From assembly GCA_020632515.1 (NCBI GenBank), contig JACKFK010000009.1, forward strand, positions 4,476 to 68,475: a stretch of DNA of 64,000 nt, read 5' to 3'. The stretch comes from Candidatus Omnitrophota bacterium. Its GTDB lineage: Bacteria > Omnitrophota > Gorgyraeia > Zapsychrales > Zapsychraceae. This document shows positions 1 through 17,380 of the stretch, in pieces. The translations under genes and the position numbers were made by a program. Positions within the stretch are counted from its first letter, which is position 1; each line of letters starts with the position of its first letter. Below the pieces are notes generated by a model. It was not told the origin of the DNA, did not search any database, and was given only the letters and a program-made list of their open reading frames with translations.

Positions 1-3000
1 TGAATCGTTTGCTGAATGTGGAATATCCGGATGGCGAAAAGATCTTCTATCAATATAACGATGCGGGACAGATTAAAGCAATCTCGAATGATGTGTTGAT
101 TCTGCCGCAATCGGCATTGGGAGTTGAAAAAAGTCACCAGGTCGCAAAGTCACAAAGTCGCCGAGAGATACCGTTGGCAGTGGCCAGTGATCAGATTTCA
201 GAAAGTCACAATGTCACAATGTCACAAGGTCACAAAGTCACAAGGTCACAAAGTCAACAAGTCGCCAAGTCACAAAGTCACAAAGTTACAAAGTTACCGT
301 TCATTATTGATACGAGCAACGAGCCCTTCGACTTCGCTCAGGACAAGCAACAAGCCCTTCGGCTTCGCTCAGGACAAGCAACCAGCAACCAGCAACAAGC
401 AACTAAACCTTTCTTGTCCCAACTGCTAGAACACCTTTCCAACTTTTTTGTTACTCCTGCTTACGCGCAGAGTAACGCGTATCTTTGGGAAGAGGCGGAA
501 AACGCGGACAGTTTATCATCTCAATTTCAGATCATCAATGAAGCCAGCGCTTCTAACGGCCAGCATACGTTCACCTCAAACACGATTCCTTCGAATTACG
601 CGGTGAATCCGGCTATGGTGGCGACCTACAGTTTTCAAGTGCCGAGCACGGGTAATTATGTTGTTTGGGGGCGTTGCTTGAATACGTTTGAAGACGATGA
701 TTCCTTTTATATTCAAATGGACAGCGGCACGATTCATACCTGGGATATCGCGCAGGTCGGCGGGTATCATTGGGATCAGGTCAGCAGTCGCGGCGGCGCA
801 GATCCGGTGGTGTTTAATTTAAGCGCGGGAACGCATACATTAAAAGTCTATGTGCGGGAAACCGGGACCAAACTGGATCGCATTCTTTTAACCAATGATT
901 TAACGTTTACACCGACGGGTTTAGGTGAAGATCCCGGGGCCGGGAGCAGCGACACGCAAGCGCCGAGTGTGCCGGCGGGATTGTCATTCACCAATAAAAC
1001 GCAGACATCGATGCAGTTGAATTGGAACGCGTCCACGGATAATGTGGGGGTGAGCGGATACCGCGTGGATGTGGCCACGAACAGTACGTTTAGCAGTATG
1101 GTTGCTGGCTTTAATAATTTGAACGTTGGCAATGTGACGGCGAAAAATATTACCGGATTGACGGCAGGAACAACGTATTACGCGCGGGTGCGCGCCTTTG
1201 ACGCGGCGGCAAATACGTCGGCCAGTTCTGTCACGGTTTCGGCGTCGACAAATTCCGCGCCGCCAAGCAACAATACTCCAGGAACAATTTGGATTGAGGC
1301 GGAAGCCGCCGATACTATTGTCGCGCCTTTTCAAATTGACGCGGATGTGAATGCTTCCAGCGGAGAATTTGCTTCCGTGCCGAATGGAAATCAGGATCAA
1401 AATCCTCCAGGGAATGTTATGTTAACGTACAACATTATGATTCCTGAAACCGGGGATTATGTGATTTGGGGGCGAACAATCAGTTTCGCGATTTTAGATG
1501 ATTCGTTTTTTGTGCAGGTTGACAACGGCACAGATTATTTATGGGATACCGAGCCTTCGGCCAATTGGAATTGGGATCAGGTGAATAATCGTAATGGCGC
1601 GGATCCGGTGATTTTTCATTTAACAGCCGGGGCGCATACATTAAAGATTAAAGAACGGGAAACGGGAACGTTGATCGACAAAATTCTCATCACCAATGAT
1701 CTCACTTATGTTCCAAGCGGATTAGGAGAAAGTGGAGGTTCATCCGCAGACACACAAGCGCCGAGTGTGCCGACGGGATTGTCATTTACGAATAAAACAG
1801 AAACATCCATGACGCTTAATTGGAACGCGTCCACGGATAATGTGGGAGTGAGCGGATACCGTGTGGATGTAGCCACGAATAGTACGTTTACCAGTATGGT
1901 TACCGGCTTTAATAATTTGAACGTCGGCAATGTGACGTCCAAAAATATTACCGGGTTGACGGCGGGGACAACGTATTACGCGCGGGTGCGCGCCTTTGAC
2001 GCGGCGGCAAATACGTCGGCCAGTTCCGCGACGGTTTCGGCGTCGACAAATTCTGCGCCGCAAAGCAACAATACTCCGGGAACAATTTGGATTGAGGCGG
2101 AGGCATTTGATACGATTAAGGCTCCATTTCAAACAGCTACCGATGCGAATGCATCCGGAGGTGTTTATGTGTATTCTCCAAATGGACAGTATGAGCAATG
2201 GAGTCCGGGGAGTGTGGAAACAACATATACTCTTGATATTGCGCAGACCGGCGATTATGTGATCTGGGGACGGGTTATCGGCGCGACAGGAAATGATGAT
2301 TCATTCTATGTTCAGATCGACGGTGGTAGTGATTATTTATGGAGTGTGGAAATTAACAGCACTTGGATTTGGGATCAGGTGAGCAGTTTTGGCGGGGCTG
2401 ATCCGGTGGTGTTTCATTTAACAGCCGGCATCCATACGCTTCATGTTAAACAGCGGGAGAACGGGGTGAAGATTGACAAGCTTGTGGTGACCAATGATCT
2501 AACGCTTGTGCCGAGCGGTTTGGGCGGATCTAACAGCAGTACGGCCGCCGCAACTTTGTTTATCAAAGACGTGAAGTATAACGCGTCAGGGCAGATTACA
2601 CGCGTGGAATACGGCAACGGGGTGGTGACCAATTACACGTTTAACACGCTGAATTTGCGGTTGGAGCGGATGCTAACGACCGACGCGCAAGGGGTGAAAT
2701 TGCAGGATCTCAATTACACTTATGATTCGGCCGGCAATATTTTAGGAATCACCGACGCGGTGCATACAGCCACGCAGACGTTTCAATATGATGCGCTCAA
2801 TCGGTTGAAAAAAGCGGTTGGAAATTATGGCACAAAAAACTATGCGTATGATCAAATCGGGAATATAATTCAGAAAGACGGTAAGACCTACACGTATGGC
2901 GCGGGCACTGCCGGGCCGCATGCGGTGACGTCACTTAGTGATGGATCCAGTTTTCAGTATGATGCCAACGGTAATATGATTGTCCGCAGTGAGAGCGGGG

Positions 3001-4520
3001 TCACAACGGAATACGGGTATGACGTCGAGAATCGTCTGGTTAGTGTCAAGGAGAATAGCGCGACCAAAGTTCTTTATCAATACGACGGCGATGGGGGAAG
3101 AACCCAAATGACCATTTCTGCCAGTAGCAAGACAACCACGTTTGTTGGTTCTCTTTATGAGAGTGATGGGTCACGCGCGACGAGTCACGTGTTTCTCGGG
3201 GATACTCGTGTCGCATCGATCACCAACGGGCAGATCGTTTATGTTCATGGAGATCATTTGGGCGGGGCGAATGTGATCACCGCTGCCGACGGGGTCATTA
3301 AGGAGTTGATTGAGTATAAACCGTTTGGTGCCAAGAGCGTGCATGAGAAGTATGGTTCAGGCGAGGCGATTGCCTGGCATTACTTTACGGGCCAGCGGTT
3401 GGATGATGAGGTCGGGCTCTACTACTACGGGGCGAGGTATTATGATCCGTCGCTCGGAAGATTCATTACGGCGGATGGTATAGTGCAAAATCCAGTAGGT
3501 GATCCGCAAACGTTTAATCGGTATTCCTATGTTGGGAATAATCCAATAATTCGGATAGACCCTAGTGGGCATTTTTGGTTTGTTGCGGCAATTGTTGCAG
3601 CTGTTAAAGGGGCAGTCATTGGAGCGACTATTGGAGCTACTACTGCTGCTATAACAGGAGGAGATATTGGAAGAGGGGCGTTATTTGGTGCAATTGGCGG
3701 CGCAGCATTTGCAGGGTTTGGAAGTTTAACGCAATCAGCTTTTCGAATTGCTACTGTTCCGGGAGGAATAGGCCCCATGACTTCTGGAGCAACCTTTGCT
3801 GCTGATCTTGCTGGCGGAATAATTGGCGGCGCTGCTGGTGGCGCTGCTAGCGCAGCCTATTTAGGGAGTGATCCCTTAAGTGGAGCAGGGATTGGAGCCC
3901 TTAGTGGGGGACTTTTTGGACAAGTCAGCAAAATGAGAGGGACAGGATGGCCAGGAGTTGGAAGAGTTGCTGCCGCAGGTATTGCAGGTGGGTTAGTTTC
4001 AGAGGTAGCAGGAGGTTCTTTCATAGATGGGTTTGCCTTTGCTGGGACTGTTGCGGGAGCAGATTTTATTTATAGAGCGATAGTGAGTACTCAACCAGGT
4101 GCAGAAGACATAGGATCAACTACGAAAACTGCAAGGCATCCAGGAAAATATAAGATGGGGTTTGATGAAAATGGAAATGAGAAATTATTGCGAGTTTTAA
4201 ATGTAGATAAACATTTAAGAAGTAATACAGGAATTCCTTCTTTTCTTGGAGAAACTGGAAATGCATTTTCACAACATTTTTGGGCTAGTGAGACAGGGGC
4301 TGTAATGAATTTTATGGCTAAATATATTCCAGGAATTAATGGGATGTCTTATGCTCATGATGTTTCAGGACATTTTCTAACAAGTACTTTTGGTAAATCG
4401 ATAAATGGTAAATTTTTTAATTTTCAAACAATGCCAATTTATTATGGAGTTAATAATATAGGAGCAGCGATTAATGATTTTCCAGCGTTAATTGGGATTT
4501 ATAATGTGTATGGAGAATAA
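1..4520 (+). CDS. RHS/YD-repeat polymorphic toxin, 5' end outside the window (frame 3 is open back to base 3, so the TTG at 9 is not a real start)
   Basis: YD repeats occur on both sides of the central array (NVEYPDGEKIFYQYNDAGQ; NYTYDSAGNILGITD; QYDALNRL; YDANGNM). An RHS-associated core (YFTGQRLDDEVGLYYYGARYYDPSLGRFITAD) ends in NPIIRIDPSGH, with DPSGH at 3558-3572. A 315-aa variable C-terminal region follows. Confidence 0.85.
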   Translation, partial: NRLLNVEYPDGEKIFYQYNDAGQIKAISNDVLILPQSALGVEKSHQVAKSQSRREIPLAVASDQISESHNVTMSQGHKVTRSQSQQVAKSQSHKVTKLPFIIDTSNEPFDFAQDKQQALRLRSGQATSNQQQATKPFLSQLLEHLSNFFVTPAYAQSNAYLWEEAENADSLSSQFQIINEASASNGQHTFTSNTIPSNYAVNPAMVATYSFQVPSTGNYVVWGRCLNTFEDDDSFYIQMDSGTIHTWDIAQVGGYHWDQVSSRGGADPVVFNLSAGTHTLKVYVRETGTKLDRILLTNDLTFTPTGLGEDPGAGSSDTQAPSVPAGLSFTNKTQTSMQLNWNASTDNVGVSGYRVDVATNSTFSSMVAGFNNLNVGNVTAKNITGLTAGTTYYARVRAFDAAANTSASSVTVSASTNSAPPSNNTPGTIWIEAEAADTIVAPFQIDADVNASSGEFASVPNGNQDQNPPGNVMLTYNIMIPETGDYVIWGRTISFAILDDSFFVQVDNGTDYLWDTEPSANWNWDQVNNRNGADPVIFHLTAGAHTLKIKERETGTLIDKILITNDLTYVPSGLGESGGSSADTQAPSVPTGLSFTNKTETSMTLNWNASTDNVGVSGYRVDVATNSTFTSMVTGFNNLNVGNVTSKNITGLTAGTTYYARVRAFDAAANTSASSATVSASTNSAPQSNNTPGTIWIEAEAFDTIKAPFQTATDANASGGVYVYSPNGQYEQWSPGSVETTYTLDIAQTGDYVIWGRVIGATGNDDSFYVQIDGGSDYLWSVEINSTWIWDQVSSFGGADPVVFHLTAGIHTLHVKQRENGVKIDKLVVTNDLTLVPSGLGGSNSSTAAATLFIKDVKYNASGQITRVEYGNGVVTNYTFNTLNLRLERMLTTDAQGVKLQDLNYTYDSAGNILGITDAVHTATQTFQYDALNRLKKAVGNYGTKNYAYDQIGNIIQKDGKTYTYGAGTAGPHAVTSLSDGSSFQYDANGNMIVRSESGVTTEYGYDVENRLVSVKENSATKVLYQYDGDGGRTQMTISASSKTTTFVGSLYESDGSRATSHVFLGDTRVASITNGQIVYVHGDHLGGANVITAADGVIKELIEYKPFGAKSVHEKYGSGEAIAWHYFTGQRLDDEVGLYYYGARYYDPSLGRFITADGIVQNPVGDPQTFNRYSYVGNNPIIRIDPSGHFWFVAAIVAAVKGAVIGATIGATTAAITGGDIGRGALFGAIGGAAFAGFGSLTQSAFRIATVPGGIGPMTSGATFAADLAGGIIGGAAGGAASAAYLGSDPLSGAGIGALSGGLFGQVSKMRGTGWPGVGRVAAAGIAGGLVSEVAGGSFIDGFAFAGTVAGADFIYRAIVSTQPGAEDIGSTTKTARHPGKYKMGFDENGNEKLLRVLNVDKHLRSNTGIPSFLGETGNAFSQHFWASETGAVMNFMAKYIPGINGMSYAHDVSGHFLTSTFGKSINGKFFNFQTMPIYYGVNNIGAAINDFPALIGIYNVYGE
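132..403 (+). repeat. Low-complexity repeat element read in frame inside the RHS ORF: GTCACAAR octamer arrays plus two GCTCAGGACAAGC-containing units and (AGCAACC)n
   Basis: Octamer arrays lie at 132-160 and 203-296. Near-identical ~30-nt units AGCCCTTCGRCTTCGCTCAGGACAAGCAAC lie at 322-351 and 352-382, and AGCAACC-type repeats at 383-403. The stretch translates as SHKVTKSQ-type and FDFAQDK/LRSGQA-type peptide. Confidence 0.9.
480..2530 (+). repeat. Intragenic tandem duplication with a 798-bp period: three beta-sandwich (CBM-like) modules interleaved with two FN3 domains
   Basis: Two anchors recur 798 bp apart: GACACRCAAGCGCCGAGTGTGCC at 951 and 1749, and GGAACAATTTGGATTGAGGCGGA at 1281 and 2079. 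The FN3 segments (about 951-1270 and 1749-2068) match at roughly nine in ten positions by eye. The CBM-like modules (WIEAEA..DDSF.VQ.D..W.WDQV..ADPV.F.L.AG.HTL) are more diverged. Confidence 0.9.
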
Positions 4521-4539
4521 ACGAAATAGACAAAGAGTA

Positions 4540-5031
4540 ATGAAAAAAATAATAGTTATTGTAATATTATTTTTTTCATGTGGATGTACAAGCGTATCTT
4601 TAGGTGGTATTAATTATAATAATGCTCCAAGAGGGTTTCACACTAGTAATACTTCAATTATTTATATTCTTCGAGAGAACGCAACTCCTACCGCATTTGG
4701 AGCTAAAATTTTAATTAACAATAAAAAAGTTTGTGCGCTGCCAAATAAGGGATTTACTTGGGTTGAAGTAATTCCTGGGGAAAAAATGATATTAGCAAAA
4801 TGGCCATCTATAACTGGACAAGAAGATAGTACTATTAGGATTAATGCTAAAGAAAATGAAACATATTACATATTATTAAATCATGATAGGACAATAGGGG
4901 GGTCTGTTTTTAGTCCGTACAATATGATTAATGCATTTGTAATAACAAACAAAAGTCTAGCTCAAAATAAAATGAAAGATATGAAATATTTTAAGAGTAA
5001 GAGAACGGACCAGGTTGTTTTATGTCAATAA
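4540..5031 (+). CDS. Small lipoprotein and candidate immunity protein for the RHS C-terminal toxin (alternative start at 4510 overlaps the toxin stop)
   Basis: It has a signal peptide with a lipobox-like sequence (MKKIIVIVILFFSCGC) and sits immediately downstream of the toxin tip. It is AT-rich like the toxin tip. Its last codons (KRTDQVV) are encoded by a copy of the GAGAACGGACCAGGT repeat. Confidence 0.5.
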   Translation: MKKIIVIVILFFSCGCTSVSLGGINYNNAPRGFHTSNTSIIYILRENATPTAFGAKILINNKKVCALPNKGFTWVEVIPGEKMILAKWPSITGQEDSTIRINAKENETYYILLNHDRTIGGSVFSPYNMINAFVITNKSLAQNKMKDMKYFKSKRTDQVVLCQ

Positions 5032-5230
5032 TTCGGTAACTTTTTCAAGTTTTTGAAAGGGCGTTTGGTATTTAATGCCACCATGAACGCGCCTGTGATT
5101 GTAATCGTATATATATTGTCCTAATTGCTCTTTGAATTCTTCAATATCTTTAAATGTGTGTGGTCTAATAAGCTCGTTTTGAACAATTTTAAAGAAAGCC
5201 TCTACTTTACCATTAGGCTGAGGATAATAA
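5020..5230 (-). pseudogene. C-terminal remnant of a DDE (rve-type, IS481/IS3-like) transposase
   Basis: Only about 70 aa remain. They carry the integrase-core E region (PQPNGKVEAFFKIVQNE) and the tail YNHRRVHGGIKYQTP. The N-terminal part is replaced by the 50-nt repeat at 5229-5280. Confidence 0.7.
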
Positions 5231-5280
5231 AGAGAACGGACCAGGTACATCTCGAGGGACACGTTGAGTGAAAGCAGTTC
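5229..5280 (+). repeat. REP-like ~50-nt repeat, copy 1 (AAGAGAACGGACCAGGTACATCTCGAGGGACACGTTGARTGAAAGCAGTT)
   Basis: It is nearly identical to 5506-5558, 277 bp downstream. The 5' 17-mer also occurs at 4998-5015 and 5559-5577, and inverted at 6245-6258. Confidence 0.85.
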
Positions 5281-5505
5281 TGTTCATAAGTAAATATTCA
5301 TAAAAATATAAAACTCGACCATCAACCGCATGTCTTTTTATTTTTTATGAATATTTAACTTGAAACGTTATAACCCAAATAAAAAGCATTTGGGTTGTTA
5401 TTTATCAACTCTTTATTGAGACTTAAAATAACAAATCGAACCAAACATCGGTTCGATTTATAACTTGCATGCTCTTTGGAGAACGGGACAGACCCCGATG
5501 GGGAC

Positions 5506-5577
5506 AAAGAGAACGGACCAGGTACATCTCGAGGGACACGTTGAATGAAAGCAGTTTTAAGAGAACGGACCAGGTCC
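5506..5577 (+). repeat. REP-like repeat, copy 2, followed directly by a short third copy (AAGAGAACGGACCAGGTCC)
   Basis: Direct sequence identity with 5229-5280. It lies about 55 nt upstream of the first Y1 transposase gene. Confidence 0.85.
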
Positions 5578-5632
5578 AAAAAAGTGACAGGTCAAGCTGA
5601 AATTAAGCGGAGAAAGGATAGGTTATTGATGA

Positions 5633-6229
5633 ATGGCGCGGGTATCAAGGAATGAATTACTTTATAAAGATTGTTATGCTCATGTGATATCACGATCGAT
5701 TCGCAAAATGAAGATTTTTAACGATGAAGAGGATTTCATCCAGTTTAAATATTTACTTTTGCAGGCTAAGAAAATAGGTCAATTTCGGGTATATCATTAT
5801 TGTGCAATGCAAACGCATTTCCATCTGGCTGTACAAATGGGGGATGTATCATTATTTGCGAATGCAATTCGGGATTTAAAAAGATCTTATGTTTACTGGT
5901 TTCACACAAAATATAAAATTAGTGGGCCGATATGGCGGGAACGATATCGAAGTTTGTTGATTGAGGATGAGAATTATTTATATACGTGTGGATTGTATAT
6001 TGAAAACAATCCGGTGAAAGCTGGGTTAGTGCAGCAATCGGATCAATGGGCGCACAGTTCAAGTCGGTATTATATTAGAGGAAGTAATGATGTCCTAGTC
6101 GATGAATATGAAAGGGACGTTTGTAAAATGAGTGATATTATGCTTGATGAAGAGGATTTTGAAAAGGGAAGTGTGATTGGATCCAGTTTTTTCCGATTTC
6201 AGTTTTATGATAGGCGTAAGAGAAGCTGA
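5633..6229 (+). CDS. IS200-like / REP-associated tyrosine (Y1, HUH) transposase, copy 1
   Basis: It has the HUH motif (QTHFHLAV) and the catalytic Tyr helix (YIENNPVKAGLV), plus WRERY. It is flanked by GAACGGACCAGGTCC at 5563-5577 and its inverted copy at 6245-6258. Confidence 0.8.
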   Translation: MARVSRNELLYKDCYAHVISRSIRKMKIFNDEEDFIQFKYLLLQAKKIGQFRVYHYCAMQTHFHLAVQMGDVSLFANAIRDLKRSYVYWFHTKYKISGPIWRERYRSLLIEDENYLYTCGLYIENNPVKAGLVQQSDQWAHSSSRYYIRGSNDVLVDEYERDVCKMSDIMLDEEDFEKGSVIGSSFFRFQFYDRRKRS

Positions 6230-6260
6230 GGGGTCCCTCTGAAAGGACCTGGTCCGTTTT
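6228..6260 (-). repeat. Inverted REP-like copy (GGACCTGGTCCGTT) preceded by a GAGGGGTCCCTC near-palindrome
   Basis: The reverse complement of 6245-6258 equals AACGGACCAGGTCC, as found at 5564-5577. Confidence 0.7.
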
Positions 6261-6324
6261 GTTGTTTTGTTTTGGAGGGAAAGGTTGAGTTGAACGAGAA
6301 CGAATGCAAGAAAGGAGCGTTGCG

Positions 6325-7086
6325 ATGCGACGAACGAAAGGGAGAGGTGTTTTTGAATTAATTTTAACAGGGGTGGTCTGCTGCGGAATGCTGATGGGTG
6401 CGGCAGGAAAAGCTGAGAGTTTTATACTCATTAATGAGTTCCTGGCTGATCCGGCTAGCGGACCCAGCGGCGATGCCAATGGCGACGGGGCTACCTCAAG
6501 CAGTCAGGATGAATTCATCGAACTGCTTAACTACAGCGACGAGGATGTAAATCTTTCCGGCTGGTCTTTAAGCGACAATCTACGGACCCGCCATGTCTTT
6601 TCCGATTCTACGATTATTAATTCGTATGGTTATTTTGTCATTTTCGGCGGAGGCGACTTCTCGGCAGCCAATTGGCAAAGCGCTTCCACAGGAACGCTGG
6701 GTTTAAATAATTCCGGCGATACGATCACGCTGTTTAACAGCGATTTATTGCAGATTGATCAGATCGTTTATGGCAGTGAAGGCGGGCAAAACCAATCGCT
6801 GACACGGTTTCCGGAAGGGGTACCAGGGAGCCCCTTTGTTTTGCACAGTGAATTAGCCCAGGCGCAAGGTCGGTTGTTTTCGGTGGGTGAAAGTATCGAC
6901 GGCCAGCCGATCGCGCCGGAGATTGTCCTGCCGGAAGAGCCGTTGCCTGAGATGTCGGAGTCAGGGGAAAATCCCGTGGTGCCGGAGCTGCCGGTGGCCG
7001 TGTATTTTCTTGTTGGGTTGGCTGGGCTTCATTTCCAACGGAGAACGGTTCTCGCTAAAGTCTTGGCGGGAAAAACGTTGGAGTAG
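6325..7086 (+). CDS. Secreted lamin-tail-domain (LTD) protein with a PEP-CTERM-like C-terminal anchor (alternative start 6304)
   Basis: It has a signal peptide and the LTD pattern (ILINEFLADP..DEFIELLNYSDEDVNLSGWSLSD..GLNNSGDTITLFN). The C-terminus reads VPELPVAVYFLVGLAGLHFQRR. The gene is visibly GC-richer than its surroundings. Confidence 0.7.
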   Translation: MRRTKGRGVFELILTGVVCCGMLMGAAGKAESFILINEFLADPASGPSGDANGDGATSSSQDEFIELLNYSDEDVNLSGWSLSDNLRTRHVFSDSTIINSYGYFVIFGGGDFSAANWQSASTGTLGLNNSGDTITLFNSDLLQIDQIVYGSEGGQNQSLTRFPEGVPGSPFVLHSELAQAQGRLFSVGESIDGQPIAPEIVLPEEPLPEMSESGENPVVPELPVAVYFLVGLAGLHFQRRTVLAKVLAGKTLE

Positions 7087-7096
7087 AGGTGTCCCT

Positions 7097-7603
7097 ATGA
7101 TTCGCCCGCGACGGTTTTATTACGCCAAGTCTATTTATCACGTCATTGCCCGCGGCAATAATCGGCAGAAAATTCTGAAATACCCCACAGACAAACAATC
7201 CTTTTTGAATAGTCTGACAAAATATAAAGGGCTCTTTTCTTTCCGGTTATACGCTTTTGTGATAATGGACAATCACATCCATTTGATGATTGAGGCTGAT
7301 GAGCATTTTAATATCTCCAAAGTCATGCAAAGGATTTTATTGTCTTATAGCGCGAAATACCGTAGAAAATATAAATATGTGGGGCATGTCTGGCAGGGGC
7401 GGTTTGTGAGTTTCAATGTTAGCGGAGATCATTACGTGGAGGAGTGTTTGCAGTATATACACCGCAATCCTGTAAAGGCGGGAATTGTTGACGTTGAGGC
7501 AGATTATCGATGGAGTAGTGCGCGGTTTTATGTTAAGCGTAAGGTTGTTTCAGATGGTTTGCTGTATGATTTGGATTTAGATGGTTCTGAGGGACACTTC
7601 TAA
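7097..7603 (+). CDS. IS200-like / REP-associated tyrosine (Y1, HUH) transposase, copy 2 (diverged from copy 1)
   Basis: It has HUH (MDNHIHLMIE), GRFVS, and the Tyr helix (YIHRNPVKAGIV). The ATG at 7097 follows the LTD stop. The tracked 6887 start would overlap the LTD gene and is unlikely. Confidence 0.8.
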   Translation: MIRPRRFYYAKSIYHVIARGNNRQKILKYPTDKQSFLNSLTKYKGLFSFRLYAFVIMDNHIHLMIEADEHFNISKVMQRILLSYSAKYRRKYKYVGHVWQGRFVSFNVSGDHYVEECLQYIHRNPVKAGIVDVEADYRWSSARFYVKRKVVSDGLLYDLDLDGSEGHF

Positions 7604-7740
7604 CTTAAATACTTGCAGAGTATATTGTTGGAGAGAACCGTTCTCAAAGATGGGGTGTCTATTTGCGGGAAGGGCTGTCCGGGAGTGTCTGGGTTTGTCA
7701 TCTTGAAAAGTATAGGGGGATGTTGCATACTTGTCGGAAT

Positions 7741-8122
7741 TAGTGGTAAGTGATAAGTCAGAAGCAAGTCACAAGGTCACAAGGTCACAAGGTCACAAAG
7801 TTATAAGGTCGCAAAGTCATAAGGTTGCAAAGTCACAAAGTGTTGAATCCGGCAAAAGAATTTTAGCTATCAGGCATCAATTATCAGCTATCAAAAAGTA
7901 GTATGGTCTTCTGTCGCCAGGATACAGTGACCATTGAAAAGTCACAAAGCCACAAAGTCATAAAGTCACAAAGTCGCAGATATTTTGTAATCTAGCAACT
8001 TTATGACACGGTGACATTTTGAAATCTGACGACTGACAGCTGACAGCTACGAATCAGATAACTGACACGGTGACTTTGTGACAAGGATGTCGGATATGTG
8101 TGCCTGTGACTTTAAAATACTG
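7741..8122 (+). repeat. Octamer-array foldback element, copy B (full length, intergenic)
   Basis: It starts TAGTGGTAAGTGATAAGTCAG, followed by (GTCACAAR)n at 7767-7840. The conserved core is GAATCCGGCAAAAGAAT..TAGCTATCAG..GTCGCCAGGATRCAGTGACCA, with a second array at 7940-7977. GCAACTTTATGACACGGTGAC and inverted octamers (GTGACTTTGTGAC) follow near 8068-8084. Confidence 0.85.
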
Positions 8123-8135
8123 AGAGGATAACGAT

Positions 8136-9005
8136 ATGATTGCTTTTACAAAAACAGCCAAGAAAACATTTAAACATATGCAAAAACAAGCGCGCATTCG
8201 CAAAGATATTAGCCAATTGAAAGAGCAGATTGGTTTGGTACCTAAACAAATGGCGCAGATTATTAAGGAAGTGTTAAATGATATTTTAATCGATGTGGAT
8301 CGGGTTACGATCGATAATATCGAACAGTTACGCCAAGATATGCTTCAATCTTCGGCCGCGGTTGTCAAACGCGATTTTGGCGCTGGCGCTCCCGGAGCAA
8401 AACTTTCCAATAAAGAAATGAAAAACGGCCGTCTTGTTGAACAATCCGTGGCTGAGATTTGCGCTATGACCAGCAAAGATCCGAAGTGGGCGTTGTTGCT
8501 TTTTAAAATGATCCGCACGTTTCATCCATTTATTTGTTTAGAACTTGGAACCAGCGTTGGGATTTCATGTTGTTATCAAGCCTCTGCTTTAAAATTAAAT
8601 GGTGAGGGTCGCATGATAACGATTGAAGGTTCAGATGAAGTTGCCAAAGTGGCGCAGGCGAATATTCATGATCTGGAATTAAATAATGTCGAGATTCGTA
8701 TTGGCCGGTTTGATCAGCAGCTGCCAGAAATTTTAGAAGAATTAGTGGAGGTTGACTTCGCGTTTATCGATGGTCATCATGATGAACACGCGACGCTGGA
8801 ATATTTTGAACGAATTCATCCTTATCTATCAACGCAGGCGATTATTGTATTTGATGATATTAATTGGTCGGAAGGAATGAAGAGGGCGTGGAAACAAATT
8901 GTTGATGATCCGCGGATAAAATATAGTTTTGATTTAAACGCCATGGGGGTGTGTTTCTTAGATCAAAACCGAAAGACGAAAAGCCATTTTAAGGTTGAAT
9001 TATAA
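8136..9005 (+). CDS. Class I SAM-dependent (O-)methyltransferase
   Basis: It has the SAM-binding fold motif LELGTSVGIS and the downstream pattern FAFIDGHHDEHATLEYF..IVFDDINW, typical of the O-methyltransferase family 3-like group. Confidence 0.6.
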   Translation: MIAFTKTAKKTFKHMQKQARIRKDISQLKEQIGLVPKQMAQIIKEVLNDILIDVDRVTIDNIEQLRQDMLQSSAAVVKRDFGAGAPGAKLSNKEMKNGRLVEQSVAEICAMTSKDPKWALLLFKMIRTFHPFICLELGTSVGISCCYQASALKLNGEGRMITIEGSDEVAKVAQANIHDLELNNVEIRIGRFDQQLPEILEELVEVDFAFIDGHHDEHATLEYFERIHPYLSTQAIIVFDDINWSEGMKRAWKQIVDDPRIKYSFDLNAMGVCFLDQNRKTKSHFKVEL

Positions 9006-9028
9006 TAACCACCTCGTACAATAAAATT

Positions 9029-9154
9029 ATGAAGTCCATCTTTCTATTATTGGTGTTTTTGAATTTGATGATCAGTGGTTGTTCACGCATAAATTTACCC
9101 CATGTGCTTCAGCCAACAATCCAGCCGGAGAGTGCGGAAGCTCCAACCCAATAA
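9029..9154 (+). CDS. 41-aa putative lipoprotein (not in the ORF track)
   Basis: It reads MKSIFLLLVFLNLMISGCSRINLPHV.., with a signal peptide and a clear lipobox (LMISGC). The only support is the lipobox. Confidence 0.35.
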   Translation: MKSIFLLLVFLNLMISGCSRINLPHVLQPTIQPESAEAPTQ

Positions 9155-9179
9155 AAATTAAAGGTTTTCATTAAATATT

Positions 9180-10037
9180 ATGATAAACAATAATGCGATA
9201 TTATTAATTTCCTGTAAAGATCAGCGGGGGATAACCGCGGATATCACAAGATTTATTTTTGAACATAACGGCAATATCATCGACGCCCAGCAACATATCG
9301 ATGAGCAAAGCAATACTTTTTTTATGCGCGTGGAATGGGCGTTGGAAGGATTTGACTTGGCCAAAGACGGCATTGCCGCAACTTTTTCTTTGCTGGCCCA
9401 GAAGTATCAGATGGATTGGGAACTGAGCTTCAGTCAAGACCGGCCGCGTTTAGCGATTTTTGTTTCTAAACATCTGCATTGTTTATACGATTTATTGATC
9501 CGGTATAAATCCGGACGCCTTCCGTGTGAGATACCGCTTATTATCAGTAACCATCCGGACGCCAAAGACGCGGCGCGGGAATTTGATATTGATTTTGCCG
9601 AATTTCCGATTAACCCGCGTAATAAAAACGCGCAGGAAAAACGCGAGTTGGAATTATTAAAGCTCAAAAGGATCGACTGGATTGTTCTGGCGCGGTATCA
9701 TCAAATTCTGACGAAAGATTTTATTAGCCACTATGGAAATAAAATTATCAATATTCATCATTCGTTTTTACCCGCGTTTGCCGGCAAAAGTCCGTATGCC
9801 CAGGCTTATAAAAAGGGCGTGAAAATTATCGGCGCGACCAGTCATTTTGTGACAGAGAGTTTAGATGAAGGGCCGATTATTGAGCAGGATATCGTGCGGA
9901 TTAATCATCGCCATTCATTGATGGATTTGGTGCATAAAGGGGAAGACCTTGAAAAAATTGTACTTAACCGCGCGGTTATGCTTGCCTTAGAGAAAAAAAT
10001 CCTTACCTATCATAATAAGACCATTGTGTTCGGATAG
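9180..10037 (+). CDS. purU: Formyltetrahydrofolate deformylase
   Basis: An N-terminal ACT-like region (ILLISCKDQRGITADITRFI) is followed by a formyltransferase core (IINIHHSFLPAFAGKSPYAQAYKKGVKIIGATSHFVTESLDEGPII). Confidence 0.85.
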   Translation: MINNNAILLISCKDQRGITADITRFIFEHNGNIIDAQQHIDEQSNTFFMRVEWALEGFDLAKDGIAATFSLLAQKYQMDWELSFSQDRPRLAIFVSKHLHCLYDLLIRYKSGRLPCEIPLIISNHPDAKDAAREFDIDFAEFPINPRNKNAQEKRELELLKLKRIDWIVLARYHQILTKDFISHYGNKIINIHHSFLPAFAGKSPYAQAYKKGVKIIGATSHFVTESLDEGPIIEQDIVRINHRHSLMDLVHKGEDLEKIVLNRAVMLALEKKILTYHNKTIVFG

Positions 10038-10118
10038 TGGGATAGGGTACTCTATCTATCAATATTTATAAATCTAATTGTTATAGAATTTTGATATGTT
10101 ATACTTAAAGAAATATTT

Positions 10119-10358
10119 ATGAGTCCAACTGTATTTAGATATAAAAATTACCGTTTTTTCTTCTTTTCTCGTTAAGAACCAAGAATGCATATCCATGTAT
10201 CAAATCCTAATGGCGAGGCAAAGTTTTGGATTGAACCTATTATTGCATTGGATAGGTATACTGGATTAACAGATAAACAACTTAAAGAATGTCAAAGATT
10301 AGTTGAGGAACATCAAAATGAAATTAAAAAATCGTGGAAAAAGCATTTCAAAAGTTGA
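10119..10358 (+). pseudogene. DUF4160-family gene interrupted by an in-frame TAA at 10173-10175
   Basis: It reads MSPTVFRYKNYRFFFFSR*EPRMHIHVSNPNGEAKFWIEP.. . The family hallmark (F.F.S.E...PH.HV) spans the stop. The gene overlaps the downstream DUF2442 gene. Confidence 0.6.
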
Positions 10359-10578
10359 AGTCTTAAATATATCTTCTTTTGGAATATGGATTCTTGTTAG
10401 AGCGAATGAATATTTTCTTGCCTATAAAGACTTTCCTTGGTTTAAGAAAGCTACTTTAAAACAGATTCAAAATGTTAAATTGCTTCATGGTCACCATCTA
10501 TTTTGGCCAGAATTGGATGTTGATCTACATTTAGAATCTCTTTCCAACCTTGAAAAGTATTCCTTAGTTTATCAATAG
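10318..10578 (+). CDS. DUF2442-family protein (partner of DUF4160)
   Basis: The sequence ISKVEVLNISSFGIWILVRANEYFLAYKDFPWFKKATLKQIQNVKL fits the family. The two-gene DUF4160/DUF2442 arrangement is typical. Confidence 0.55.
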   Translation: MKLKNRGKSISKVEVLNISSFGIWILVRANEYFLAYKDFPWFKKATLKQIQNVKLLHGHHLFWPELDVDLHLESLSNLEKYSLVYQ

Positions 10579-10625
10579 GACTTAATTTTTTCTGTCGACT
10601 GACCACTGTCGACGGGAGACTACTC

Positions 10626-11375
10626 ATGCACATTGGACGAACAAGATTTAAAAAAGATATCATTACAGAATTTATGCTGCCGCAGCGAAAAGATTCACGT
10701 AAGGTGATGATTTTCTGCTCAGGGGTTCCAGGTTCACCGCATAAGGATGAGGTTCTGGATTTTTGGGCGCGTAAAGGATATTGGACTTTTTTCCCCCGCT
10801 ACCGTGGGACATGGGAAAGTGGAGGATCATTTTTAGCGCATTCCCCGCATAAAGATTTGTTAGATGTTATTGATGGCTTGAGTTCCAAAGAAAAATTTCA
10901 TGATTTCTGGGGTGGTAAGAATCATCAAATCAAACCAAAGAAGATTGTCATTGTTGGATCGAGTTTTGGTGGACCAGCCGCTATTCTCGCGTCACGGGAC
11001 CCGCGGGTGGATAAAGTGGTTTGTATCTCGCCGGTGGTAGATTGGGTAGCGGAAAATAAAGCAGATCCGTTGGATAAGTTATACACCTTTCTTAAGGACG
11101 CCTATGGCGGTGCGTATCGGATCCAGAAGAAAGATTGGAATAAACTCGCGCAAGGTCGTTTTTATAATCCGGTTCAGCATCTGCAAGAGTTAGACGGTCG
11201 GAAGATTTTGATTTTACATGCTAAAGACGATGAAATCGTTAAAGCCAAACCTGTCATTAAATTTGCTCAACAAACTCAAAGTCAGCTTGTCCTGCTTAAT
11301 AAGGGCGGACATCTTTCCTCGTCAATGCTCACCCTAGATCGCTATTACCGTAAAGTGATTTCTTTTCTAAAATAA
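10626..11375 (+). CDS. Alpha/beta hydrolase (S9/dienelactone-hydrolase-like)
   Basis: It has the nucleophile elbow GSSFGG and a late D..H region (HAKDDEIV, GGH). Confidence 0.6.
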   Translation: MHIGRTRFKKDIITEFMLPQRKDSRKVMIFCSGVPGSPHKDEVLDFWARKGYWTFFPRYRGTWESGGSFLAHSPHKDLLDVIDGLSSKEKFHDFWGGKNHQIKPKKIVIVGSSFGGPAAILASRDPRVDKVVCISPVVDWVAENKADPLDKLYTFLKDAYGGAYRIQKKDWNKLAQGRFYNPVQHLQELDGRKILILHAKDDEIVKAKPVIKFAQQTQSQLVLLNKGGHLSSSMLTLDRYYRKVISFLK

Positions 11376-11445
11376 AGGAATTTAATCCTTTTTTACCAGA
11401 CATATTTCAGTATACTTAGAGTATAAATAATTTCATTCATTTATT

Positions 11446-12996: not shown

Positions 12997-13080
12997 TTAT
13001 GATTTTTATGCTGTTTCAACGCAGTGGACGTTTTTCTCTTCCTTCTTTTTTCCTTTTACTTTTCTGATATAATCAATCCC

Positions 13081-13557
13081 ATGAATCATTCTTTTAAAGT
13101 AGGTTTAAGTTTTGGCATGATGTCCGGGATTATCACGACCTTGGGGCTAATGGTCGGGTTAAACGCGGGTACCGAATCCAAGCAGGCGGTTTTAGGCGGC
13201 ATTATTATTATTGCTGTGGCCGACGCTTTTTCTGATGCGCTTGGTATCCATATTTCCGAAGAAGCCGAAAATGTGCATACCGCCAAAGAGGTTTGGCTTT
13301 CAACAGTATCAACTTTCTTTTCAAAATTTCTATTTTCTTCGCTTTTTATCCTGCCGGTAATTTTATTTGAACTTAAGCGCGCGGTTTTTGTTTCGATTGG
13401 TTTTGGTTTTAGTCTAATTGTTACGATTAGTTTTCTATTGGCGAAGGAGCAGAAGATTAATCCTTGGAAAGTAATCTTTGAACATGTTTTTGTGACGGGC
13501 GTGGTAATTCTTTGCACCTATCATATTGGGGAATGGGTGAAGACGTTAGGCGGATAA
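13081..13557 (+). CDS. VIT1/CCC1-like small integral membrane protein
   Basis: It has the motifs GLSFGMMSGIITTLGLMVG and AVADAFSDALGIHISEE and several TM helices. The ATG at 13081 is preferred over the GTG at 13024. Confidence 0.45.
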   Translation: MNHSFKVGLSFGMMSGIITTLGLMVGLNAGTESKQAVLGGIIIIAVADAFSDALGIHISEEAENVHTAKEVWLSTVSTFFSKFLFSSLFILPVILFELKRAVFVSIGFGFSLIVTISFLLAKEQKINPWKVIFEHVFVTGVVILCTYHIGEWVKTLGG

Positions 13558-13558
13558 G

Positions 13559-14530: not shown

Positions 14531-14631
14531 AATGATGGTGGAGACGAGAAGATTTCTGTATTTTAATTGAAGAGCAGGGAATTATCGTTTAAGATAAATT
14601 GGTTTTAATTTTAAGAAAAGAGATATGATTG

Positions 14632-14904
14632 ATGGCGTCGGAAAAAAATATTCAGTGGGAAGCTTCAACAAAGTTAAAATTTGAACAAATGGTGGAGAAA
14701 GTGCCGGTATTTCTGCGCGGGATGGCGCAGGAAAAGGTGGAGAAACGGGCCTTTGAACTGGTCGCGCAAGATCAGCGCACTATTATTGAAGAGAAAGATT
14801 TGGTTACGGCGTTTTTTGATGCCACACCGTTTGGTTTTCATGGACCGATGAAATGTGATATGGAAGAGTTAGGGATTGATTATACGAAGTATGGGTTTGA
14901 TTAG
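14632..14904 (+). CDS. Small protein with a PCP-reductase-type (protochlorophyllide reductase C-terminal-like) domain
   Basis: The sequence WEASTKLKFEQMVEKVPVFLRGMAQEKVEKRA resembles the PCP_red domain. This assignment is from memory only. Confidence 0.35.
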   Translation: MASEKNIQWEASTKLKFEQMVEKVPVFLRGMAQEKVEKRAFELVAQDQRTIIEEKDLVTAFFDATPFGFHGPMKCDMEELGIDYTKYGFD

Positions 14905-15212
14905 TGGTAAGCGCTAAGTGATTAGTGGTAAGTCAGAGAAAGTCACAAGGTCACAAGGTCACAAAGTCGCAAAGTGCCGAATCCGGTAAAAGAATCTTAG
15001 CTATTAAACATCAGTTTTTAGAAAAGTAATGGTCTCCTGTCGCCAGGATGCAGTGACCAGTGAAAAAGCCACAAAGCCACAAAGCCAACAAAGTCATAAA
15101 GTCACAAAGTCGCAGATATTTTGTAATCTAGCAACTTTATGACACGGTGACTTTGCAACATTGTGACCTTGTGACATTCTGAATACTGACAGCTACGCAC
15201 CGGATAACTGAA
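14902..15212 (+). repeat. Octamer-array foldback element, copy C (full length, fills the whole intergenic gap)
   Basis: The left arm 14932-14977 (GTCAGAGAAAGTCACAAGGTCACAAGGTCACAAAGTCGCAAAGTGCC) is approximately the reverse complement of the right arm 15141-15190. The internal core and second array (15068-15112) are shared with copy B. The element starts on the upstream stop codon and ends 7 nt before the next ATG. Confidence 0.9.
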
Positions 15213-15218
15213 ATAATT

Positions 15219-15443
15219 ATGTCCAAACTTCAACCAGGTATTTACGAGCATTATAAAGGGAAGCGTTATGAAGTGATCGGTGTGGCTTTGCACAGCGAAA
15301 CTTTAGAAGAGCTTGTTGTCTATAAAGCCCTTTATAAATCCGAATACCCGGAAGGTTCGCTATGGGTTCGACCGTTAGCCATGTTTACTGAGCAAGTTGG
15401 AGTGAAAGAAAAGCAAGTTCCACGTTTTCGTTTAATCTCATGA
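15219..15443 (+). CDS. DUF1653-family protein
   Basis: YEHYKGKRYEVIGVALHSETLEELVVYKALY..LWVRPLAMF matches the family hallmark. Confidence 0.7.
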   Translation: MSKLQPGIYEHYKGKRYEVIGVALHSETLEELVVYKALYKSEYPEGSLWVRPLAMFTEQVGVKEKQVPRFRLIS

Positions 15444-15685: not shown

Positions 15686-15758
15686 GTGAGTCTTGACTAC
15701 GAATGAATGGATGGTATACTTAAGCGTAAAACAGATTCTATATCGATAGGAGATTGGT

Positions 15759-16339: not shown

Positions 16340-16365
16340 CACTTTTAAAAGATAAACTATTCTCA

Positions 16366-16755
16366 GTGGAAGCTATTAAAGTTCGTTTAGATAAATGGCT
16401 TTGGGCGGTGCGGATTTGTAAAACACGGACGATCGCCACAGATTTATGCAAGCGTCAACGGGTCACTATCAACGGTCAGTATGCAAAACCTTCCCGCGAT
16501 ATTTCTCCTGGAGATCTTATTGTAATCAAAAAAGACGGCATCGAATGGCAGTATAAAGTCTTACAAGGCATTGATAAACGGGTTGGTGCCAAGATTGCGG
16601 CGCAAGCTTGTGAAGATGTGACACCAGCGGAGGCGTTAGCGAAGTTTAAGATGGTGAAATCTTCTTGGGTGCCGCGGCGGGATAAAGGCGCTGGCCGCCC
16701 AACCAAAAAAGATCGAAGAGAGATGGAGAGGTTTTTAGATAGTGATAAGTGTTAA
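16366..16755 (+). CDS. hslR: S4-domain RNA-binding heat-shock protein 15-like (GTG start)
   Basis: RLDKWLWAVRICKTRTIATDLCKRQRVTINGQYAKPSRDISPGDLI is an S4 domain. Confidence 0.7.
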   Translation: MEAIKVRLDKWLWAVRICKTRTIATDLCKRQRVTINGQYAKPSRDISPGDLIVIKKDGIEWQYKVLQGIDKRVGAKIAAQACEDVTPAEALAKFKMVKSSWVPRRDKGAGRPTKKDRREMERFLDSDKC

Positions 16756-16900
16756 GTGATAAGTGAAAAATAAGTTAAGAAATCACAAGGTCACAAAGTG
16801 CCGAATCCGGCAAGAAAACCTTAGCTATCAGACATCAGTTACAATTTGATCAACTAATTTTATGACTTTTTTTCAGTCAGTGGAGACTGGAGATTCGCGA
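16741..16900 (+). repeat. Octamer-array element, copy D (shortened)
   Basis: It reads GTGATAAGTGTTAAGTGATAAGTG..AATCACAAGGTCACAAAGTGCCGAATCCGGCAAGAAAACCTTAGCTATCAGACATCAG, then CAACTAATTTTATGAC. The middle section and the right arm are missing. Its start overlaps the hslR stop. Confidence 0.75.
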
Positions 16901-17366: not shown

Positions 17367-17380
17367 GTGTTGGCAATATT

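What the first reader, a model, noticed from the sequence alone, without database searches (positions are those of the whole stretch)
100..470. An otherwise intergenic octamer-repeat element is read through in frame inside the RHS toxin gene
Between the YD repeat at the window start and the first beta-sandwich module, the ORF crosses about 270 nt of repeats. These are GTCACAAR arrays (132-160, 203-296), two AGCCCTTCGRCTTCGCTCAGGACAAGCAAC units (322-382), and AGCAACC runs. The same octamer family forms intergenic elements at 7741, 14902 and 16741. In the forward orientation the octamer has no stop in any frame, so the ORF stays open and yields SHKVTKSQ-type and FDFAQDK/LRSGQA-type peptide. One reading is a mobile repeat exapted as a disordered linker in a surface toxin. 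Another is a fusion of two formerly separate genes; the downstream part begins ..NFFVTPAYA-QS, which looks like a signal-peptide end. A third is an assembly chimera at a repeat.
Basis: partly seen in the sequence, partly recalled or inferred. Interest (0 to 1): 0.6.

Follow-up and report, generated by a model that had tools for sequence, protein, structure and literature searches.

The report
Repeat-built linker inside an RHS toxin
A block of short DNA repeats that normally sits between genes in this Omnitrophota genome has landed in frame in a flexible surface loop of one continuous RHS toxin gene. There it most likely just lengthens a floppy tether; it is not a gene fusion.

Summary
Window 130-403 holds two GTCACAAR octamer arrays, a 31-nt tandem duplication and an AGCAACC run. 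All are read in frame by an ORF that runs from the window start to 4520.

The gene-fusion and signal-peptide readings are not supported. Relatives P0011 and P0012 have the same order in one protein: YD strand '..GQIKxISND', a tether of variable length, 'VLGVxxxYA(Q/S)', then inserted modules. In relatives without modules (L131) the two flanks lie 6 residues apart. So window aa ~31-850 is one decorated loop of the YD shell, and the 273-nt repeat block (132-404) lengthens its N-terminal tether.

AlphaFold gives pLDDT below 50 and no secondary structure for aa 38-109. The block is stop-free in two of three sense frames, so only frame continuity needed selecting.

The octamer is a dispersed family, most often four units long, found in many Omnitrophota, Bacteroidota and Planctomycetota MAGs. 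In ORFs it is always in sense orientation (35 of 35), including in HemB, AroA and PyrD. P0012 carries a GTCACAA heptamer array in the same tether.

Best reading: a tolerated in-frame repeat insertion, analogous to Rickettsia palindromic elements. An acquired function is unproven. Read-level checks were not possible.

The parts
3..119 (+). Last YD-repeat hairpins of the N-terminal part of the shell (aa 1-39, '..YPDGEKIFYQYNDAGQIKAISND..'). This is the left flank of the decorated loop.
   Evidence: 61% identical to P0011 398-433 and 40% to P0012 1369-1445. Matches L131 ORF 1077-1103. AF2 strands at aa 3-28, pLDDT 77-86.
130..161 (+). Octamer array 1 (about 3.8 units of GTCACAAR, degenerate), preceded by an A-run. 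Translated as SHQVAKSQS.
   Evidence: TRF, pattern search, translation.
157..197 (+). Spacer between the two arrays. It is related to the 3' end of the middle segment of the intergenic composite elements.
   Evidence: Local alignment of 157-190 to 15037-15063 scores 27, against 12.2 +/- 2.2 for 1000 shuffles; none reached it.
198..294 (+). Octamer array 2 (12.1 units, 85% matches). Translated as SHNVTMSQGHKVTRSQSQQVAKSQSHKVTK.
   Evidence: TRF. AF2 pLDDT below 50 with no secondary structure over aa 38-109.
315..386 (+). Tandem duplication of a 31-nt unit (2.3 copies). The copies are read in different frames (FDFAQDK, then LRLRSGQA). It is found nowhere else in the window.
   Evidence: TRF. Only two matches in the window. 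One approximate copy in 861 kb of other loci. No protein relatives.
377..403 (+). AGCAACC heptamer run (3.9 copies), translated as ATSNQQQAT.
   Evidence: TRF.
405..473 (+). Native C-terminal part of the tether, KPFLSQLLEHLSNFFVTPAYAQS. It is conserved in relatives and is not a signal peptide.
   Evidence: Corresponds to P0012 'FLGKIAVVFEEYVLGVKPAYAQT' and P0011 'SMLHNALAWVERHVLGVREVYAS'. AF2 helix at aa 135-146.
474..2555 (+). Three tandem pairs of a CBM6/CBM35-like beta-sandwich and an FN3 domain. This is the cassette displayed from the loop.
   Evidence: Pfam GH115_C and fn3. AF2 pLDDT above 90 for aa 160-297. Foldseek finds CBM35 2wz8 and CBM6 2cdp, target-normalised TM-score 0.74-0.77.
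2556..3572 (+). The YD shell resumes ('LFIKDVKYNASGQITRVEYGNG..') and runs to the RHS core motif DPSGH (aa 1186-1190).
   Evidence: 51-67% identical to relatives (54% P0008, 57% P0011, 50% P0012; L123 67%, L124 60%, L125 53%, L127 51%). TIGR03696 scores 81.5 bits against a cutoff of 32.5 at aa 1105-1190.
3573..4520 (+). C-terminal variable region after the core: a Gly/Ala-rich hydrophobic stretch, then about 200 aa. Presumed toxin domain.
   Evidence: No family hit. The position follows the RHS core. The toxin role is inferred.
7725..8135 (+). Intergenic composite element A: heptamers, octamer array, unique middle, octamer array, then a tail with inverted octamers. It lies directly downstream of a RAYT-type gene.
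   Evidence: RNA fold z-score -3.0.
14890..15225 (+). Intergenic composite element B. Two 33-nt four-octamer arms in inverted orientation (14943-14975 and 15150-15182, 88% complementary).
16735..16900 (+). Truncated composite element C (heptamers, two octamers, start of the middle segment).
6887..7603 (+). Gene for a REP-associated tyrosine transposase (RAYT) type protein. A second, weaker Y1_Tnp gene lies at 5633-6229.
   Evidence: Pfam Y1_Tnp. NF047646 scores 84.5 bits against a cutoff of 80; the 5633 gene scores 55.1.

Best explanation
The ORF is one continuous RHS / YD-shell toxin gene of a Candidatus Omnitrophota bacterium. In this family, one loop between two adjacent shell hairpins carries a variable cassette of binding modules. 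Here the cassette is three pairs of a CBM6/35-like domain and an FN3 domain. It is joined to the shell by a tether whose length differs between relatives. A 273-nt block (132-404) has been inserted or has expanded inside that tether.

The block contains two arrays of the genome's dispersed GTCACAAR octamer, a spacer related to the intergenic composite elements, a local 31-nt duplication and an AGCAACC run. In sense orientation these repeats contain no stop codons and the total length is a multiple of three, so the block is translated. The product is about 91 hydrophilic residues rich in Gln, Ser and Lys, and they are predicted to be disordered. Their only likely effect is to lengthen the tether.

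Shown here: the anatomy, the conserved flanks, the absence of the block in relatives, the predicted disorder, and the wide distribution and sense-only survival of the octamer arrays in ORFs. Inferred: that the modules sit outside the cocoon, that the block is neutral or mildly useful rather than recruited, and how the arrays spread.
For: The ORF is continuous and both flanks are homologous to adjacent parts of single proteins. P0011: query 1-36 matches 398-433 and query 150-309 matches 460-621. P0012 shows the same order. In L131 the two flanks are 6 residues apart. In L123, L124 and L125 they are separated by other modules.

The RHS core and YD repeats pass their curated cutoffs. The block is absent from P0011 (23-residue tether) and from L122-L125.

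The octamer family is over-represented in the window (29 hits against 0.14 expected), and the spacer is homologous to the intergenic elements. AF2 gives pLDDT below 50 for aa 38-109 next to confident flanking domains. GRAVY is -1.01 for the block and -0.19 for the whole protein.

GTCACAAR arrays occur in at least 118 stretches of GTDB species genomes, 44 of them Omnitrophota. Of 144 arrays, 35 lie in ORFs of at least 120 aa: all 35 are sense and none antisense. Intergenic arrays show no orientation bias. This is what a survivorship filter predicts.

The same arrays are read in frame in loops of HemB, PyrD and AroA of other Omnitrophota.
Against: No reads, transcripts or peptides were available, so translation and the exact copy numbers are unverified. 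The upstream part of the gene lies outside the window and the source contig could not be fetched.

Three independent relatives carry 7-8-nt tandem repeats in this same loop: the window, P0012/L003 (GTCACAA x6) and L127/L129 (TCCAGCT x3.9, perfect). This recurrence could mean more than passive tolerance. Several non-3n repeats sum to an in-frame length, which fits selection on the frame but has a one-in-three chance anyway.
Confidence: 0.7

Rival explanations
1. Contingency locus. The 8-nt arrays (and the 7-nt and 31-nt repeats) change length by slipped-strand mispairing. Each change shifts the frame, so the cassette, the C-terminal shell and the toxin switch between on and off. The assembled sequence is the 'on' state.
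For: The unit lengths are not multiples of three. A shift ends translation by 429 or earlier. Short 7-8-nt arrays recur in the same loop in three relatives, one of them perfect. RHS proteins are surface or competition factors, a class in which phase variation is common (general knowledge).
Against: The arrays are degenerate (85% and 72% matches; the longest perfect tract is about 36 nt), which lowers slippage. The one array that could be compared between independent assemblies (7938-7975 in L202) has the same length. The same arrays sit stably in frame in essential enzymes, at the same HemB site in two species.
Confidence: 0.1
2. Assembly artefact. The join across 130-403, or the copy numbers inside it, were produced by the assembler at a repeat, possibly between two paralogous RHS genes.
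For: Every other assembly of this organism that could be retrieved ends in or next to these repeat elements. No near-identical copy of this protein is in the protein database.
Against: Left flank, tether end, module and resumed shell follow the order seen in independent single proteins. The arrays (32 and 97 nt) are shorter than a typical read. The frame is preserved across the block.
Confidence: 0.07
3. Two genes or a recent fusion. An upstream YD gene ends in the repeats and a separate secreted CBM/FN3/RHS protein begins near 'NFFVTPAYA'.
For: The A-x-A-like 'AYA-QS' motif. In L206 a relative is split near this loop.
Against: There is no hydrophobic core and no start codon with a plausible signal peptide before AYA. 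The motif is internal in P0011 and P0012. The L206 split is a plain frameshift without repeats. In a relative without modules the flanks are contiguous strands of one shell.
Confidence: 0.02
4. Recruited function. The repeat tract is kept because it does something, for example as a recombination site for swapping module cassettes, as a binding site for a protein on DNA or RNA, or as a spacer of selected length.
For: The tract sits exactly at the upstream border of a cassette that differs between relatives: CBM/FN3, LamG, FN3, or CBM+DUF4215+LamG. GTCACAA-type repeats occur in the same tether of a relative only about 50% identical. Four-unit arrays predominate.
Against: There is no matching repeat at the downstream border of the cassette. 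Most relatives with cassettes have no repeats there. The tract is degenerate.
Confidence: 0.1

Closest known systems
Rickettsia palindromic elements (RPEs): selfish repeats inserted in frame in protein-coding genes
   Same: A dispersed repeat family is found both between genes and inside ORFs. It is read in frame, lies in surface loops or linkers of otherwise conserved proteins, and appears compatible with function (PMC10969869).
   Different: RPEs are palindromic units of about 100-150 bp. Here the inserted material is direct tandem octamers (typically 4 x 8 nt; 4 + 12 units in the RHS gene) with no inverted arms. The host phylum is unrelated and no sequence similarity was tested.
Dispersed heptamer repeats (long SSRs): TAACTGA in Beggiatoaceae, Cyanobacteria and Bacteroidetes; GGGNATC in Xanthomonas and Nostoc
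   Same: Tandem direct repeats with units of 7-8 nt, spread over the genome, mostly intergenic, shared by distant phyla. The GGGNATC family also shows a marked preference for four units (PMC4679880, PMC4692102).
   Different: The unit is different. It has no G-tracts, so the G-quadruplex explanation for four units does not apply. [quoted passage not shown]
REP / REPIN elements with their RAYT transposase
   Same: A RAYT-type gene that passes NCBIfam's cutoff lies about 120 nt upstream of composite element A. Element B is bounded by two 33-nt arms in inverted orientation, like a REPIN doublet. Singlet arrays are common elsewhere.
   Different: The 33-nt arm is a direct repeat of octamers, not a palindrome with a conserved 5' tetranucleotide. 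No Y1 gene was found near arrays in 118 other loci, although that is uninformative for a single-copy gene. Mobilisation is untested.
SSR contingency loci (phase variation)
   Same: A non-3n repeat tract lies inside the ORF of a surface or competition protein.
   Different: The tract is degenerate and mid-gene. No length polymorphism could be observed.
RHS / Tc-toxin BC-type YD-shell cocoons
   Same: YD repeats, an RHS-associated core ending in DPxGH, and a variable C-terminus. Relatives carry SpvB, FG-GAP and TcdB_toxin_midN domains upstream.
   Different: One shell loop carries an insertion of about 820 residues made of CBM and FN3 modules. The N-terminal part of this gene was not seen.

Membership tests
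RHS / YD-repeat polymorphic toxin | YD (RHS) repeats | tested here: met
   PF05593, E = 1.5e-15. TIGR01643 scores 39.8 bits against a cutoff of 15.8.
RHS / YD-repeat polymorphic toxin | RHS-associated core domain ending in the PxxxxDPxG[LH] motif | tested here: met
   TIGR03696 scores 81.5 bits against a cutoff of 32.5 at aa 1105-1190. 'PIIRIDPSGH' at aa 1181-1190.
RHS / YD-repeat polymorphic toxin | Variable C-terminal toxin domain followed by an immunity gene | tested here: inconclusive
   The 315-residue C-terminal extension has no family hit. A small DUF2846 ORF at 4492-5031 overlaps the stop, but its role is unknown.
RHS / YD-repeat polymorphic toxin | Complete N-terminal shell and delivery domains | not testable with these tools
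   These lie upstream of the window. The source contig could not be retrieved.
RPE-like in-frame repeat insertion | Multi-copy dispersed element also found between genes | tested here: met
   Four places in the window and at least 118 stretches in GTDB genomes.
RPE-like in-frame repeat insertion | Inserted in frame, with the host protein conserved on both sides | tested here: met
   for the RHS gene. for HemB, PyrD and AroA.
RPE-like in-frame repeat insertion | Palindromic element structure | tested here: not met
   No inverted repeat longer than 10 nt in 90-480.
REP/REPIN-RAYT system | RAYT gene present | tested here: met
   NF047646 scores 84.5 bits against a cutoff of 80 for 6887-7603.
REP/REPIN-RAYT system | Short palindromic REPs, often as inverted doublets, flanking the RAYT gene | tested here: inconclusive
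   Element B has inverted 33-nt arms, 88% complementary. Element A lies next to the RAYT gene. The arms themselves are direct octamer repeats, not palindromes.
SSR contingency locus | Near-perfect tract of non-3n units within the ORF | tested here: inconclusive
   The units are 8 nt but match only 85% and 72%.
SSR contingency locus | Tract-length polymorphism within or between populations | not testable with these tools
   No reads were available. The only comparable array (7938-7975 against L202) is unchanged.

The most novel reading that the evidence does not exclude
The GTCACAAR array, typically quantised at four units (32-33 nt), is a discrete mobile mini-element. It has colonised genomes of Omnitrophota and of some Bacteroidota and Planctomycetota. 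It survives in sense orientation inside coding sequences as an 11-residue 'VTKSQSHKVTK' loop, including in essential enzymes. This would be an RPE-like phenomenon in a different phylum with a non-palindromic element, possibly mobilised by RAYT-type Y1 transposases. The RHS tether would be its largest in-frame landing site.
Probability: 0.3. Interest if true: 0.7.

Novelty: new variant of a known kind. Interest (0 to 1): 0.45.

Why it matters
For this gene, the result settles the annotation. It is one RHS-type toxin gene with a decorated shell loop. It is not two genes, and the repeat-coded stretch should not be read as a domain or a signal peptide.

More widely, it points to a dispersed octamer repeat family that is often read in frame in proteins of an uncultivated phylum. 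The library search found no paper containing this repeat sequence, though the library is limited. The family affects assembly, because contigs break at it. It affects gene calling, because it creates spurious 'SHKVTKSQ' ORFs. It also offers a natural test of how much low-complexity insertion protein loops can tolerate.

The finding also marks one loop of this RHS family as the site where binding modules are exchanged. That is useful for anyone engineering or classifying these toxins.

Tried and rejected
- **Source contig.** I tried to fetch it to see the upstream half of the gene and how it was annotated. Exact look-ups of four neighbouring proteins either failed or returned only short sibling contigs.
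- **Known RNA.** No Rfam family matches 1-20000, even at E = 1.
- **The 31-mer as a widespread repeat.** From memory I expected the 'FDFAQDK/LRSGQA' unit to belong to a widespread family. The tools did not support this. There were no word-sharing candidates in 5.8 billion proteins. HMMER against 1.84 billion representatives hit only through the octamer-coded part. Only one approximate DNA copy turned up in 861 kb. I now treat it as a local duplication.
- **Full composite element.** The RHS block is not a full copy of the intergenic composite element. Only the octamers and a 34-nt spacer are shared.
- **Transcription-coupled orientation.** Intergenic arrays in other genomes show no orientation bias relative to neighbouring genes.
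- **RAYT next to arrays elsewhere.** No Y1 homolog was found in 118 loci. This is uninformative.
- **L206 as an out-of-frame phase variant.** The split RHS there is a plain frameshift with no repeats.
- **Second protein search.** The search with the junction profile returned mostly truncated fragments and added only one further junction, P0121.
Full report
**1. The observation**

Tandem Repeats Finder reports octamer arrays at 130-161 and 198-294 (12.1 copies, 85% matches), a 31-nt unit repeated 2.3 times at 315-386, and AGCAACC repeated 3.9 times at 377-403.

A two-unit octamer probe with up to two mismatches hits 29 times in the window, against 0.14 expected. All hits fall in four places: the RHS gene and the intergenic regions around 7768-7980, 14942-15175 and 16782-16797. 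The 31-mer occurs only in the RHS gene.

One ORF in frame 3 runs from the window start to 4520 and yields the quoted peptides. One caution applies. Segment 127-405 is free of stops in two of the three sense frames, and all antisense frames are full of stops. The openness is therefore built into the repeats. Only the frame match across the block, a one-in-three event, could reflect selection.

**2. What the gene is**

Pfam and NCBIfam find YD repeats, two FN3 domains, GH115_C-like beta-sandwiches and the RHS-associated core. TIGR03696 scores 81.5 bits against a cutoff of 32.5, ending at 'DPSGH', aa 1186-1190.

Exact protein look-ups place the window on a 118,340-nt NCBI contig of a Candidatus Omnitrophota MAG. 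The RHS gene has about 48-50% G+C, while most of the window has 32-43%, typically about 37%.

**3. One gene, one decorated loop**

The best RHS relatives keep the same order within single proteins.

- In P0011 (1862 aa), query 1-36 matches 398-433 (61% identity), query 150-309 matches 460-621, and query 851-1192 matches 1192-1534 (57%).
- P0012 (2605 aa; SpvB, FG-GAP, TcdB_midN, YD shell) behaves the same way.

Both relatives read '..GQ(I/M)K(E/A)ISNDPALF..', then a tether of 23 or about 60 residues, then 'VLGV(R/K)xxYA(S/Q)', then an inserted domain. The window's 'NFFVTPAYAQS' is therefore a conserved internal motif and not the end of a signal peptide.

Loci fetched from JGI metagenomes show the ground state. 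In the L131 ORF, query 2-28 matches 1077-1103 and query 849-1335 matches 1110-1571, so the two flanks lie 6 residues apart. L127 reads '..YTYNAQGGIETVS-LQLPASSFQP-IVTNIDYNAAGQLTKIAYGNG..'.

Other relatives fill the same loop with different modules: LamG domains in L122, L124, L125 and P0121, and FN3 domains in L123. Window aa ~31-850 is thus a cassette displayed from one loop of the YD shell.

An 820-residue insert of binding modules cannot fit inside a cocoon that houses the toxin, so it is presumably external. This last point is an inference.

**4. The repeat block within the tether**

Compared with P0011 ('..LDVK|PEPSML..'), the window has '..GVEK' followed by 273 nt (132-404, 91 codons) and then 'KPFLSQ..'. 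The block consists of:

- about 3.8 octamers;
- a 41-nt spacer;
- 12.1 octamers;
- a 20-nt unique piece;
- the 31-mer duplication, whose copies are read in different frames, which is why the peptides differ;
- the AGCAACC run.

The three intergenic elements are homologous to one another as composite elements. The RHS block is not a copy of them. It shares the octamers and its spacer: 157-190 aligns to the end of their middle segment with a score of 27, against 12.2 +/- 2.2 for shuffles, and none of 1000 shuffles reached it.

The unique parts of the composite elements occur only in this genome and its sibling assemblies. The 31-mer has no detectable relatives.

AlphaFold2, run with a 16-sequence alignment, gives confident YD hairpins (aa 3-28) and a confident beta-sandwich (aa 160-297, pLDDT above 90). 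Foldseek matches that sandwich to CBM35 and CBM6 at target-normalised TM-scores of 0.74-0.77. In contrast, aa 38-109 have pLDDT below 50 and no secondary structure. The block is rich in Gln, Ser and Lys, with GRAVY -1.01.

**5. The octamer family elsewhere**

Of these, 44 are from Omnitrophota MAGs of many studies. The rest are mostly Bacteroidota and Planctomycetota.

Among 144 arrays the modal size is four units (67 arrays), with a sharp drop above four. Thirty-five arrays lie in ORFs of at least 120 aa, all in sense orientation. Intergenic arrays show no orientation bias relative to their neighbours. That is the signature of a survivorship filter, not of a targeted or transcription-coupled process.

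Many in-ORF cases are uniform four-unit arrays, usually preceded by AAA or AAG, inside conserved enzymes. Three were checked against solved structures:

- HemB, with the array at the same site in two species. The array sits after 'HGHCGV' and adds a net 7 residues relative to 5lzl.
- PyrD, net +4 residues relative to 1ep1.
- AroA, net +3 residues relative to 3rmt.

In each case the array occupies a loop of an otherwise well-conserved protein. The other enzyme identities I noted by eye are untested.

**6. Repeats recur in this particular loop**

P0012's gene (L003) carries six GTCACAA heptamers (7261-7303, in frame, 'VTSDKSHDTRHRSQD') in the same tether. L127 and L129 encode their short loop with a perfect TCCAGCT x3.9 array. 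P0011 and L122-L125 have none.

I read this as a permissive site being hit repeatedly in repeat-rich genomes. It is also the main fact that keeps the functional readings alive: phase variation, or a recombination or spacer role.

**7. Assembly**

The source contig could not be retrieved. A sibling MAG and Logan contigs from three runs match the window at 99.8-100% identity, but each starts or ends in or next to one of the repeat elements. The one array that could be compared, 7938-7975 in L202, has the same length.

Because independent proteins show the same order of flanks, a chimeric join is unlikely. The copy numbers inside the block remain unverified.

**8. How the arrays might spread (inference only)**

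The ORF at 6887-7603 passes NCBIfam's cutoff for a REP-associated tyrosine transposase (84.5 bits against 80) and lies about 120 nt upstream of element A. Element B is bounded by two inverted 33-nt four-octamer arms that are 88% complementary. Element A folds with its 5' array paired to 3' inverted octamers, z-score -3.0.

This resembles a REPIN doublet next to its RAYT. However, the arms are not palindromes, and no Y1 gene was found near arrays in other genomes. The RHS block has no inverted arms.

**9. Comparison with known systems**

In-frame insertion of dispersed repeats into genes is known from Rickettsia palindromic elements (PMC10969869). Dispersed heptamer repeats shared across phyla are also known, including one family with a four-unit preference (PMC4679880, PMC4692102). 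No paper in the searched library contains this octamer sequence.

The RHS read-through is therefore a new instance and a variant of a known kind, not a new category. The phylum-wide in-frame four-octamer arrays found along the way are the more interesting lead.

**10. Verdict**

- Observation: confirmed.
- Fusion and signal-peptide reading: not supported.
- Chimera: unlikely, but not tested at read level.
- 'Repeat used as a disordered linker': supported as anatomy. It is best described as a tolerated in-frame insertion in a naturally length-variable tether (confidence about 0.7). Recruited function and phase variation are minority alternatives.

Noticed in passing
L030 1026-1057, L103 6146-6177, L039 3584-3615, L077 (minus strand) 5186-5217, and others in L035, L041, L073, L083, L116: Uniform four-unit GTCACAAR arrays (32-33 nt, 'VTKSQSHKVTx') are read in frame inside conserved enzymes of several Omnitrophota MAGs. 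HemB carries one at the same site in two species. Net loop lengthening is 3-7 residues relative to solved homologs.
   Followed up: partly
L003 7261-7303; L127 1246-1272; L129 2047-2073: Other relatives of this RHS protein carry different 7-nt tandem arrays (GTCACAA x6; a perfect TCCAGCT x3.9) in exactly the same shell loop or tether.
   Followed up: partly
window 14943-14975 and 15150-15182; 7725-8135: The intergenic composite elements are bounded by inverted four-octamer arms (33 nt, 88% complementary in element B), like a REPIN or MITE. Element A lies about 120 nt downstream of a RAYT-type gene (6887-7603).
   Followed up: partly
window 4492-7603; L002 8615-10010; L206 8572-10904: Conserved neighbourhood: RHS 3' end, a small unrelated ORF, then Y1_Tnp gene(s). 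The window gene at 5633-6229 is 63% identical to its counterpart at the same position in L002.
   Followed up: partly
window 1-4000 against the rest: The RHS gene has about 48-50% G+C, while most of the window has 32-43% (typically about 37%). This suggests horizontal acquisition or a compositional effect of the repeated modules.
   Followed up: no
window 7886, 7989, 15146, 16784, 16812: Contigs of a sibling MAG (GCA_020430025.1) and of Logan assemblies (SRR12358675, SRR17907852) start or end in or next to these repeat elements. The repeats act as assembly breakpoints.
   Followed up: yes
window about 3100-3135 (aa 1033-1044): A second variable site in the shell. Relatives L123, L124, L127 and L144 carry an extra domain of about 170-240 residues here ('..LKPGWNFxSLP..') that the window protein lacks.
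   Followed up: no
window 8054-8060 and 15205-15211: Single TAACTGA heptamers lie near the 3' ends of elements A and B, in B just upstream of the start codon at 15219. This is the unit described as upstream direct repeats in Beggiatoaceae.
   Followed up: no
window 39258-39846: Tandem repeats of 93 nt (5.6 and 2.2 copies) inside the 1117-aa ORF at 36626-39979. They encode a Cys-rich 'CGNG..' motif.
   Followed up: no
L206 6001-8551: A relative of the RHS gene is split into 304-aa and 438-aa ORFs by a plain frameshift near the same loop. It is probably a decaying copy.
   Followed up: yes
L042 1605-1636 and 2237-2261: A Planctomycetales ORF holds an in-frame four-octamer array and also the only approximate copy found elsewhere of the window's 31-mer core (CCCTTCGACTTCGCTCAGGAC).
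   Followed up: no
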